Shown here one piece after another: positions 6,318-8,904 of a DNA stretch of 64,000 nt; positions within the stretch are counted from its first letter, which is position 1, and every line of letters begins with the position of its first letter. Under the pieces are notes generated by a model. That model saw only the letters and a list, made by a program, of their open reading frames with translations. It ran no database searches and had not been told where the DNA came from. This DNA is from an uncultured Phycisphaerales bacterium. Its GTDB lineage: Bacteria > Planctomycetota > Phycisphaerae > Tepidisphaerales > Tepidisphaeraceae. The stretch is from contig CAWJPJ010000006.1 of NCBI GenBank assembly GCA_963844715.1, positions 224,001 through 288,000 of the forward strand, written 5' to 3'. A program made the position numbers and the translations under genes.

Positions 6318-6922
6318 CTACTGGAATTTGAACCCGTTGATCTTCCAAGCCCCGTTCACTTCGATAAGGAAAACCTGTCCCGTAGCGCTACTCCCGTCGG
6401 AGAATTGGATCTTCACGAAAGAGTTCCCCGTCTTGTTTCCGTTGGCGTTCTGTATCCCCGCGATCGGGCAGGTAACCTTCTGCAAAGTCGGCTTATTCTT
6501 GAACCAGTCCAGCGCTTGCTGAAGCTGATCCGCCGTGACCGGATTCGTGCATTCGGCTGTCACGGCCGCCTGATTTGCGCCGCCAGATCCATGACAAGCT
6601 GGTCCGATGCCGTCCGTAGCGGACCCGTCACCTGCCACCACCCGATTCCCCCCAATCCCCACAACCCGAAATTGACGAAACCGAGGATCAACCCGGCGAC
6701 CGCCATCCCGCGCCCGCGCACCGCCGGGTTCTTCGTCGCGCTGATCCCGGTGATCCCGAATATGATCGCCAGCAAACCGCTCAATCCAGGAATGCAAAGC
6801 AGCAGTCCGCAAACCAGACTGGTGATTGCAAGCCCGCTCGTGCGCCAGGCCATCGGAACCGGATAAGGAGACGGCATGCCGCCCGGCGGATACCCCGCCG
6901 GTGGATAGAGTGGTTGGCTCAT
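6318..6922 (-). CDS. DUF4190-domain membrane protein (frameshift near 6580)
   Basis: TSGLAITSLVCG...GRGMAVAGLILG. The C-terminal domain (...EVNGAWKINGFKFQ) lies in another frame and aligns with the paralog next door. Confidence 0.8.
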
Positions 6923-7018
6923 CCCCCAATCATAAGTCCCCTCCCCAGGGCAACCCCCATCCACACCCCGCTCGCGCCAGCCCCATCCGCGACCGGATTC
7001 CAAACCGCATCCCAATCC

Positions 7019-7053: not shown

Positions 7054-7647
7054 CTAATTGAATTCAGCCCGATAAACCTGCAAGTTCACCCCGCGATAGA
7101 TCAAGCTTAAATCCGCCCTCGCCCGGCTACCATCCGCAAATTCAATCTCGCAGGACACTTTCCCGGTGGTGAATCCCGATTGATAATCGACCGAACCGTT
7201 CGATGTCCGAATCGACTTCACCGATCCGCGCTTTTTAAAGAAATCCATGTATCCCCTGATCTGATCGTCGGAGATCGATTCCACGCAGTCCCCCCTCGCG
7301 CTGATAAAGTTGCCCGCCGACAGATCCACAATCAACTGCCGCGACTCGCTCCGCATCGGCCCGGTCGTTCCCCGCCACGAATTGTAAACACATCCCCAGA
7401 ATGCCAGATTGATCACCCCAAGAACAATCCCCGCCACCGCCAGCCTGCCCCCGCGCAACGCCGATTTTCGCGTCGCCAGGATCCCTCCAATCCCCGTACC
7501 GATCGCCGCCAATCCCGTTACCGCCGGAATGCAGACAAACCCGCCCAATACCAAACTGGCGACCGCCAATCGGCTAAGCCGCTGCGAAATCACCCCCGAA
7601 TAATCCGAAGGAAGCGGATTACCGCCCGATTTTGGCGTTTGGCTCAT
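7054..7647 (-). CDS. DUF4190-domain membrane protein, tandem paralog of 6318-6922
   Basis: SRLAVASLVLG...RGGRLAVAGIVLG; TGPMRSESRQLIVDL matches TGPLRTASDQLVMDL of the neighbour. Confidence 0.8.
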   Translation of the reverse strand: MSQTPKSGGNPLPSDYSGVISQRLSRLAVASLVLGGFVCIPAVTGLAAIGTGIGGILATRKSALRGGRLAVAGIVLGVINLAFWGCVYNSWRGTTGPMRSESRQLIVDLSAGNFISARGDCVESISDDQIRGYMDFFKKRGSVKSIRTSNGSVDYQSGFTTGKVSCEIEFADGSRARADLSLIYRGVNLQVYRAEFN

Positions 7648-7686
7648 TCCTCCCATCATAAATCGCACTGTCCCCCAAATCTCGGT

Positions 7687-7714
7687 TTGACAGTTTTCAA
7701 CCGAATGGTATATA
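7687..7714 (+). promoter_or_regulatory. Sigma-70-type promoter of the aroF leader
   Basis: TTGACA (7687-7692), 16-nt spacer ending TGG, TATATA (7709-7714); extended -10 TG present. Confidence 0.75.
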
Positions 7715-7724
7715 TCCTCTTGTG

Positions 7725-7799
7725 ATGAATAAAGGTCGCCAGGGTTACCGCTATTGGTTTACGGGTTACTTTTACCCCGTTACCCATACCGCGTCCTGA
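7725..7799 (+). CDS. Aromatic amino acid attenuator leader peptide, MNKGRQGYRYWFTGYFYPVTHTAS
   Basis: Hand translation: 24 aa with 4 Tyr, 2 Phe and 1 Trp within residues 8-17, directly upstream of a terminator and the DAHP synthase gene. Confidence 0.85.
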   Translation: MNKGRQGYRYWFTGYFYPVTHTAS

Positions 7800-7830
7800 G
7801 CGACCACAACGAACAGTGGATAGAAGATAG

Positions 7831-7867
7831 AGCCTCAGGACAAAATCCTGGGGCTTTTTTTGTTTTT
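7831..7867 (+). terminator. Attenuator terminator hairpin
   Basis: agcctcagga-caaaa-tcctggggct stem (one G-U pair) then T7-g-T5. The 5' arm (ctcaggac, 7834-7841) is also complementary to gtcctgag (7793-7800). Confidence 0.9.
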
Positions 7868-7881
7868 GAAGGGAGCCCCGG

Positions 7882-8904
7882 ATGATAGTGGTAATGAAAC
7901 CTGGAGCCGACAAAAAGCAGGTCGAGCACGTAATTCATTTGGTGAGAGAAATGGGCCTTAAAGATCACGTCATCGTCGGGGAAGAACGAACCGTGGTCGC
8001 CGTCATCGGCGATGACCGTTTCAAAGATCGTTCCGTCCTCGAATCCGTCGACGGCGTGGACCGCGTCGTCCCCATCCTGGCCCCCTACAAAATGGCTTCC
8101 AAAGAAGTCAAAAAAGATCGCACCACCATTCCATTGGGCGGCAAGCTCAAGGGAACCGTTGGCGGTAAAAAAGTTGCCGTCATTGCCGGCCCATGCAGCG
8201 TGGAAAATAAATCCCAGGTCCTCGAGATCGCCCATGCCGTCAAGGAAGCCGGCGCCGTCGCCCTCCGCGGCGGGGCATTCAAGCCCAGAACGAACCCCTA
8301 TTCATTCCAGGGTCTGGCCGAAAAAGGCCTCGAATTCCTCGCCCTCGCCCGAGAAGAAACCGGCTTGGCCGTCGTCACCGAAGTTATGTCCATCGATCAG
8401 GTGGACCTCGTCGCCAAATATGCGGACGTCCTCCAGGTCGGCGCTCGCAACATGCAAAATTTCAATCTCCTCAACGCCGTGGGCGAGCAGAAAAAGCCCG
8501 TCCTATTAAAGCGAGGCATGAGCGCCACCCTCGAGGAATTTCTCCTCGCCGCCGAATACATCATGGCCAAAGGCAACGCCAACGTCATGCTCTGCGAACG
8601 CGGCATACGCACCTACGAGGAATACGTCCGCAACACCCTGGCCCTGGCCGCAGTCCCCGAACTCCACCGCGTGAGCCATCTCCCCGTCGTAGTCGATCCC
8701 AGCCAGGGCACCGGCAAAAGTTATCTCGTAGACAGCATGTGCCGAGCCGCGGTCGCCGCCGGCGCCGACGCCCTGATCATCGAAGTCCACAACGACCCCG
8801 AGCACGCCCTTACGGATGGCGCCCAATCCATCACGCCAGACCAGTTCGCGGAGACGATGCGCGCCATCCAAAAAATCGCCGCCGCCGTCGACCGCGAGGT
8901 GTAA
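7882..8904 (+). CDS. aroF: DAHP synthase, class I-beta, with N-terminal regulatory domain
   Basis: [51 protein letters not shown]-terminal regulatory domain. Confidence 0.95.

What the first reader, a model, noticed from the sequence alone, without database searches (positions are those of the whole stretch)
7687..7881. Unannotated Tyr/Phe/Trp-sensing attenuator upstream of DAHP synthase
Seen: a promoter, then the 24-aa ORF MNKGRQGYRYWFTGYFYPVTHTAS (7 aromatic residues in a 10-codon stretch, all three types), then an intrinsic terminator before aroF. GTCCTGAG (7793-7800), which overlaps the leader stop codon, is the exact complement of CTCAGGAC in the terminator 5' arm. Established: this is the geometry of trpL/pheL-type attenuation, where stalling at control codons frees the antiterminator and a ribosome at the stop masks it. 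Inference: one leader integrates all three end products at the first shikimate step. I do not know of a described case in this lineage.
Basis: partly seen in the sequence, partly recalled or inferred. Interest (0 to 1): 0.85.

Follow-up and report, generated by a model that had tools for sequence, protein, structure and literature searches.

The report
Leaderless three-amino-acid attenuator before aroF
A 25-codon mini-gene packed with phenylalanine, tyrosine and tryptophan codons, tied to a refoldable transcription stop signal, sits before the first enzyme of aromatic amino-acid synthesis in this likely planctomycete and most relatives examined, and likely switches that enzyme on when any of the three runs short: a textbook kind of switch, in a version I did not find described.

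Summary
Real and conserved. The ORF (7 aromatic codons in 10), the 8-nt antiterminator match and the terminator before a type Iβ DAHP synthase are as described. In 45 of 46 same-family loci (own genome included) aroF has such a leader; all 44 tallied contain Phe and Trp, 43 Tyr. Terminator and antiterminator both show compensatory changes. It also occurs in 15 of 35 loci from other classes of the phylum. Controls: the aroF paralogue (1 of 19) and trpE (0 of 27) lack it, while leuA and cimA carry matching Leu- and Ile-rich leaders. New points: the start codon lies 6-12 nt behind the -10 box without a Shine-Dalgarno site (likely leaderless; probably GTG 7722), and the leader ORF can fold a protector hairpin. 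Most likely a classical ribosome-stalling transcription attenuator; translation and starvation response are untested. Attenuation of DAHP synthase is known (C. glutamicum aroR, Phe-responsive, Tyr-blind; Acholeplasma uORFC-13-1); the retained Trp codon and this phylum were not found in print. The scan noted similar leaders before on other DNA (36 notes, one planctomycete).

The parts
7687..7692 (+). -35 box TTGACA (predicted promoter)
   Evidence: sequence; TTGAC near-invariant in 41 relatives; not called by the consensus scan
7706..7714 (+). extended -10 region TG-G-TATATA, 16-nt spacer (predicted)
7722..7799 (+). leader ORF, 25 codons from GTG 7722 (24 from ATG 7725); start 7 (or 10) nt after the -10 box, no SD; likely leaderless
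7746..7775 (+). control codons Y-R-Y-W-F-T-G-Y-F-Y (4 Tyr, 2 Phe, 1 Trp)
7734..7744 (+). segment 1: pairs with 7794-7805 in the predicted protector (anti-antiterminator / possible pause) hairpin
   Evidence: per-sequence hairpin in relatives, register not conserved
7761..7780 (+). small hairpin over the G-Y-F-Y-P codons, the only register-conserved helix inside the ORF
7793..7801 (+). segment 2: antiterminator 5' strand, overlapping the stop codon TGA 7797-7799
7832..7841 (+). segment 3: shared strand (terminator 5' arm or antiterminator 3' strand)
7846..7854 (+). segment 4: terminator 3' arm
7855..7867 (+). terminator U tract (12 of 13 T)
7870..7875 (+). Shine-Dalgarno site of aroF (AGGGAG)
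   Evidence: SD-like motif before aroF in 41 of 41 family loci, before the leader in 0 of 41
7882..8904 (+). aroF, type Iβ DAHP synthase with N-terminal regulatory (ACT-like) domain, 340 aa; next ORF is on the opposite strand

Best explanation
An aromatic-codon mini-gene, an antiterminator strand on its stop codon and an intrinsic terminator precede DAHP synthase, and likely form a ribosome-read transcription attenuator that would let aroF be transcribed when charged tRNA for Phe, Tyr or Trp runs short. Inferred steps: transcription starts at or just before GTG 7722 and a ribosome initiates without an SD site. With amino acids plentiful it reaches TGA 7797 and covers segment 2, so 3:4 forms and RNA polymerase stops at the U tract (about 140-nt RNA). 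When it stalls at any aromatic codon, 8 or more codons before the stop, it melts the protector and leaves segment 2 free to capture segment 3 as it emerges, before segment 4 is made; the terminator is pre-empted. The switch would be kinetic, since on the finished RNA the terminator wins. Phe likely weighs most (most codons); the single Trp codon likely matters because trpE has no leader of its own here. Enzyme feedback through the ACT-like domain would act on top.
For: Leader at 45 of 46 family loci (44 of 45), 14 of 17 in family f5, 4 of 6 in f7, 15 of 35 loci in other classes, each with a terminator. Core columns swap among F/Y/W: positions -13, -10, -9 from the stop are aromatic in 34 of 34 stop-anchored leaders, two of which were chosen on that basis. 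Stop-to-terminator spacing 26-35 nt in 39 of 41. Terminator 97.6% paired, 4 compensatory pairs; antiterminator 89.7% paired, 3 compensatory pairs, 0-2 of 500 shuffles reach these; three-way change in L017. Other families have different terminator sequences with matching stop-proximal strands. Constrained folding: antiterminator probability 1.0 with the ribosome at any aromatic codon, 0 at the stop; above 0.5 in 37 of 41 relatives at stall, median 0.01 at stop. Trp missing from 0 of 44 leaders against 10.1 expected if aromatics were interchangeable; 7 leaders carry it only at a shifted position. Controls: paralogue 1 of 19, trpE 0 of 27. A strict genome scan gave 3 hits: aroF, leuA (Leu-rich), cimA (Ile-rich). 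TrpR and TRAP not found in the 85%-complete genome.
Against: No translation, transcription-start or termination data. In C. glutamicum the aroR leader has a Tyr codon yet does not respond to Tyr, so codon presence does not prove sensing; 30 of 44 leaders have just one Trp codon. On the full-length RNA the terminator wins even at stall in 37 of 41; the window's own antiterminator is only 8-9 bp. Covariation within the family rests on few events among related genomes; outside f1/f7/f11/f14 the cognate-versus-noncognate duplex test was weak (median z -0.9 for f5, -0.5 for the rest). The protector has no conserved register and without a ribosome the antiterminator wins in 31 of 41 nascent-RNA folds, so the 'untranslated = off' state is unsupported. 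The leader is missing at many loci (f2 1 of 11, f13 0 of 7, f18 0 of 6; possibly because aroF sits inside operons there).
Confidence: 0.62

Rival explanations
1. Same attenuator, but in practice a Phe (or Phe plus Tyr) sensor like C. glutamicum aroR; the Trp codon is kept for RNA structure or inheritance.
For: Phe is 173 of 321 aromatic codons in the family leaders; aroR responds to Phe only; mostly one Trp codon; L102 and L245 leaders are Tyr/Phe-heavy and L245 has no Trp.
Against: Trp present in 44 of 44 family leaders and 81 of 83 leaders overall, at shifting positions; trpE has no Trp leader in 27 loci; a one-Trp leader is reported before trpS in Streptomyces.
Confidence: 0.27
2. The nascent peptide itself arrests the ribosome in response to a free aromatic amino acid or other ligand (TnaC-like; features recalled), and codon decoding speed is secondary.
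For: A motif F-G-F-W-F-x-G-Y-F-Y-P with conserved Gly and Pro holds across the family.
Against: The Gly and Pro codons form a conserved RNA hairpin; the motif is not kept in other families, which keep only aromatic richness; arrest by excess product would give the wrong sign for a biosynthetic gene with this geometry.
Confidence: 0.05
3. The terminator is switched by a protein or small ligand, or simply leaks, and the ORF is incidental or makes a small functional peptide.
For: The region folds stably without a ribosome (z -2.9; ORF region median z -2.4).
Against: Frame, start position, stop position and aromatic identity are conserved while third positions vary; cognate codons also lead leuA and cimA; no Rfam family matches; TRAP not found.
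Confidence: 0.05
4. Chance arrangement of sequence.
For: One terminator-like site is expected by chance in the region and the promoter scan was blank.
Confidence: 0.01

Closest known systems
Corynebacterium glutamicum aroR-aroF attenuator (Mentz 2013, PMC4046766, passages; Neshat 2014 not read, seen as summarised in PMC11802643 and PMC7356990 passages)
   Same: Short leader with mixed aromatic codons controls transcription of DAHP synthase by ribosome stalling.
   Different: aroR has Phe-Tyr-Phe and responds to Phe but not Tyr; this leader has 7 aromatic codons including a retained Trp, in another phylum, before a type Iβ enzyme. Sequence homology not tested.
uORFC-13-1 motif, Acholeplasma aroF (Brewer 2021, PMC8632094, passages)
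   Same: Predicted uORF plus intrinsic terminator directly before aroF.
   Different: Has an RBS and is described with Phe codons only; untested; here no SD, three amino acids, an identified antiterminator.
E. coli trpL / pheL and multi-input thrL / ilvGL attenuators (trpL, pheL from PMC11802643 passages; thrL, ilvGL recalled)
   Same: Four-segment logic: stall frees the antiterminator, ribosome at the stop permits termination; several amino acids read by one leader.
   Different: They control terminal branches and use SD-led leaders; no Rfam leader family matches here.
Leaderless leader peptides of Actinobacteria (S. lividans trpL1, trpL2, leuL, ilvL, PMC8079986 passages; C. diphtheriae ilvB leader, PMC5784534 passage)
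   Same: Leader ORF starts at the transcription start; a single-Trp leader exists (trpL2).
   Different: Those starts were mapped by RNA-seq; none of the passages lists an aroF leader; here leaderless is inferred from spacing.

Membership tests
classical ribosome-mediated transcription attenuator (trpL/pheL type) | short leader ORF enriched in codons for the pathway's products, conserved | tested here: met
classical ribosome-mediated transcription attenuator (trpL/pheL type) | intrinsic terminator between leader and gene | tested here: met
classical ribosome-mediated transcription attenuator (trpL/pheL type) | mutually exclusive antiterminator sharing the terminator 5' arm | tested here: met
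   weaker outside the family
classical ribosome-mediated transcription attenuator (trpL/pheL type) | geometry: stall at control codons frees, ribosome at stop masks, the antiterminator strand | tested here: met
   constrained folding only; needs kinetic control
classical ribosome-mediated transcription attenuator (trpL/pheL type) | 1:2 protector / pause hairpin | tested here: inconclusive
   forms in 40 of 41 single folds and ORF z median -2.4, but no conserved register
classical ribosome-mediated transcription attenuator (trpL/pheL type) | downstream gene belongs to the cognate pathway | tested here: met
classical ribosome-mediated transcription attenuator (trpL/pheL type) | leader is translated | not testable with these tools
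   indirect only: frame conservation, start spacing
classical ribosome-mediated transcription attenuator (trpL/pheL type) | termination responds to starvation for each amino acid | not testable with these tools
   needs experiment
Rfam leader, T-box or riboswitch families | match to a covariance model | tested here: not met
   window: nothing near a gathering score; 10 further loci: only a tRNA
C. glutamicum aroR-aroF | sequence homology of the leader | not tested
   aroR sequence not fetched; codon content differs
uORFC-13-1 (Acholeplasma) | RBS before the uORF | tested here: not met
   0 of 41 family leaders have an SD-like motif; motif described
TnaC-type arrest peptide (features recalled) | peptide sequence conserved across lineages, Pro next to the stop | tested here: not met
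   Pro lies 7 codons before the stop; other families keep only aromatic richness

The most novel reading that the evidence does not exclude
Planctomycetes use one leaderless mini-gene as an OR-gate for all three aromatic aminoacyl-tRNAs at the pathway's entry step, with Trp control moved from trpE to aroF and no TrpR or TRAP; it is part of a lineage-wide set of leaderless attenuators (aroF, leuA, cimA) and perhaps of an old control module of type Iβ DAHP synthases spread over many phyla and uncatalogued.
Probability: 0.5. Interest if true: 0.55.

Novelty: new variant of a known kind. Interest (0 to 1): 0.42.

Why it matters
It gives a testable answer to how a branched pathway's first step is controlled at the transcription level in bacteria that seem to lack TrpR, TRAP and T-boxes. 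It extends classical attenuation, which needs tight transcription-translation coupling, to Planctomycetota, and supplies a new RNA family and unannotated small ORFs for annotation. A three-input leader would let one ask directly how a single Trp codon is weighed against several Phe and Tyr codons. The mechanism itself is textbook, which caps the surprise.

Tried and rejected
Promoter consensus scan: blank. Rfam: no family. No second copy of the leader in the genome. First terminator finder was faulty and printed 'noterm' everywhere; redone. Pair probabilities for terminator and protector used wrong indices (printed 0); only its structures and antiterminator values are used; redone. RNAalifold found only the terminator, no consensus protector. 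A loose genome scan for other attenuators was too noisy to use and its output was cut. The cross-family cognate duplex test is confounded by arm length and shared GCCC starts. Ile at enzyme position 31 does not track the leader within the class. Earlier-notes look-up for look-alike stretches: none. Paper searches on TmaDAH7PS residues did not give the role of residue 31.

Full report
Observation. The window shows TTGACA 7687-7692, TATATA 7709-7714, an ORF from GTG 7722 (or ATG 7725) to TGA 7799, a terminator at 7829-7867 and a 340-aa gene at 7882-8904. Codons 7746-7775 hold 4 Tyr, 2 Phe and 1 Trp in 10. Of 49,887 small-ORF ends in the genome, 2 reach that density. GTCCTGAG 7793-7800 is the exact complement of 7834-7841; 3 of 5000 shuffles of the upstream 107 nt give such a match. 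The promoter scan did not call the promoter and the single terminator hit equals chance expectation, so those two rest on conservation. The gene is a DAHP synthase (PRK08673 above cut-off), aligning full-length, N-terminal domain included, to PDB 1rzm/3pg9 (that these are T. maritima entries is recalled; its Tyr-binding ACT domain is described in PMC5493349, passage). The named records with the closest aroF (74-87%) are labelled Tepidisphaeraceae, Tepidisphaerales or Phycisphaerales, so the host is likely a phycisphaeran planctomycete.

Conservation. I searched 41 relatives, 251 class genomes and 201 phylum genomes with aroF and read upstream DNA for part of the matches: 53 loci returned, 60 more, 40 and 20, picked by score and family spread, not by the leader. 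In the own family, 44 of 45 loci with at least 250 nt upstream have a small ORF with 5 or more aromatic codons in 10 (2 more loci were too short); with L262 it is 45 of 46, own genome included. Other families of the class: f5 14 of 17, f7 4 of 6, f11 1 of 1, f14 1 of 3, f24 1 of 1 (no terminator), f2 1 of 11 (no terminator), 0 in f3, f4, f8, f9, f10, f13, f16, f18, f19 (27 loci), plus 2 of 3. Other classes: 15 of 35 loci, all with a terminator (L220 short and L238 unmatched were dropped). Among 59 named loci outside this class, a Calditrichaceae and an Anaerolineales locus show the same design. Kin are not independent, so these are tallies, not tests.

Controls. The second DAHP-synthase paralogue has such a leader at 1 of 19 loci; trpE has a Trp-rich ORF with terminator at 0 of 27. 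A strict scan of the genome for (leaderless or aromatic-rich) small ORF plus perfect terminator returned 3 hits: aroF, a Leu-rich leader before leuA and an Ile-rich leader before cimA. Those are conserved too: cimA 21 of 27 with terminator, leuA 19 Leu-rich of 28 passing both filters, the other 8 misses still showing Leu-rich ORFs and one hit being non-Leu. Cognate codons before three first-step enzymes is the strongest sign that these ORFs are read as supply sensors.

Leaderless start. In 39 of 41 family loci the first in-frame ATG/GTG lies 6-12 nt after the best -10 box; an SD-like motif precedes 0 of 41 leaders and 41 of 41 aroF starts. Genome-wide, long ORFs start 6-10 nt after such promoters 8.8 times per position against 2.3 further away (641 motifs). 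So leaderless or near-leaderless initiation is likely, and GTG 7722 (7 nt) is the better start; unmapped.

RNA switch. On alignment A1 (41 of the 44 family leaders; L134, L137, L141 left out because the strict finder missed their bulged or weak terminators) the terminator is 97.6% paired with 4 compensatory pairs and the antiterminator 89.7% with 3, against at most 59% and 43% for slid controls. L017 changes all three strands together; L114 and L115 swap the outer pair. Many relatives extend the antiterminator to 11-13 bp; the window has 8-9. Other families use unrelated terminator stems with matching stop-proximal strands; a cognate-versus-noncognate duplex test was clear for f1 (31 of 43 in the best 5%) and f7 (3 of 4), weak for f5 (4 of 13) and the rest (4 of 21). 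With the ribosome modelled as a block to 12 nt past the A site, the antiterminator forms on the nascent RNA at every aromatic codon and not at the stop; in relatives 37 of 41 exceed 0.5 at stall and the median at the stop is 0.01. Against: once the 3' arm exists the terminator wins even at stall in 37 of 41, so the choice must be kinetic, as is accepted for trp (recalled). The ORF folds back on itself (7734-7744 with 7794-7805; median z -2.4 against dinucleotide shuffles, -2.3 against synonymous recoding), but only a small hairpin over the G-Y-F-Y-P codons keeps its register, and without a ribosome the antiterminator still wins in 31 of 41 equilibrium folds. The protector or pause role is therefore open.

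Which amino acids? Family leaders hold 173 Phe, 89 Tyr, 59 Trp codons; all 44 have Phe and Trp, 43 Tyr. If aromatics were interchangeable about 10 would lack Trp (minimum 4 in 5000 permutations; ignores kinship); 7 leaders carry Trp only outside its usual place. Over all 83 leaders with a terminator, 81 have Trp and 78 all three. trpE has no leader, aroF has no conserved downstream gene in the family, and TrpR and TRAP were not found in this 85%-complete genome; the TyrR-type HTH gave one hit below cut-off. This favours a real Trp input. Against it, 30 of 44 have one Trp codon only, and C. glutamicum aroR ignores its Tyr codon.

Mechanism. Shown: anatomy, conservation, covariation, context. 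Predicted: folding states. Inferred: transcription start, translation, stalling, coupling, response to each amino acid. I put about 0.9 on ribosome-dependent attenuation by aromatic tRNA charging, split 0.62 three-input and 0.27 Phe-dominated.

Prior art. Attenuation of DAHP synthase is published for C. glutamicum (PMC4046766, PMC11802643, PMC7356990: passages; Neshat 2014 itself not read), proposed for Acholeplasma (PMC8632094 passages) and listed for Shewanella aroF (PMC2659441 passages); a terminator before a Pelobacter DAHP synthase is tabulated without annotation in the supplement of PMC2965389 (main text had no hit; only the first places of each term seen). Leaderless leader peptides are known in Actinobacteria. 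Passages of PMC4833913, PMC12125101, PMC1173090 and PMC11109978 gave no planctomycete case. Ten searches of the open library showed no Phe/Tyr/Trp leader before DAHP synthase and no attenuator in Phycisphaerae; most hits were seen as listings only. Subscription papers (Vitreschak 2004, Lopatovskaya 2010) and the supplement of PMC11109978 were not seen and may bear on this; the PMC8632094 supplement had no hit. Earlier notes of this scan report 36 similar findings in at least 35 genomes, one a planctomycete; they are unchecked, and my reading was set before I saw them.

Verdict. A genuine, conserved element that works like trpL/pheL and passes every membership test I could run for the classical attenuator class except the inconclusive protector; not a member of any Rfam family. 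New variant of a known kind; interest 0.42.

Noticed in passing
G000:C4:243507 (-) = L199/L321; G000:C6:628305 (+) = L200/L263: Leaderless Leu-rich leader before leuA and Ile-rich leader before cimA (citramalate synthase), each with terminator about 30-38 nt after the stop; conserved in the family (cimA 21 of 27, leuA 19 of 28). An Ile attenuator on cimA may itself be little described (not searched).
   Followed up: partly
L194 (G000:C6:892939 +): trpE starts about 10 nt after its own TTGACA-17-TAACCT promoter: likely a leaderless gene with no room for an attenuator.
   Followed up: partly
window 7882-7995 (aroF residues 29-38): Residue 31 is Ile in all 46 family orthologues but Ser in 17 of 19 paralogues and in PDB 1rzm. 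Ser31 is recalled as the Tyr-hydroxyl contact, so the leader-controlled enzyme may be Phe-selective; unverified.
   Followed up: partly
G000:C6:642547-643601; C4 leuA; C6 cimA; L195: The aroF paralogue, leuA, cimA and a pabB-like gene are split by frameshifts in this genome, while relatives are intact; probably assembly indels.
   Followed up: no
L102, L099, L245: Aromatic-rich leader plus terminator before DAHP synthase in a Calditrichaceae and an Anaerolineales record, and before one paralogue (no Trp).
   Followed up: partly
L022, L024, L028, L175 upstream of aroF: Families f2 and f9 show short ORFs ending in Trp/Tyr-rich stretches but no clear intrinsic terminator: a possible translation-level or Rho-dependent variant.
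   Followed up: no
L019, L020, L026 between terminator and aroF: In f5 and f11 the terminator lies 150-400 nt before aroF and a second small ORF can sit in between.
   Followed up: no
G000:C6:952626-956065: Array of 24 tRNA genes in 3.4 kb.
   Followed up: no
window 7054-7668 (-) and 6560-7015 (-): Two divergent, similar-looking small membrane-protein ORFs upstream; the first has no NCBIfam hit above cut-off.
   Followed up: no
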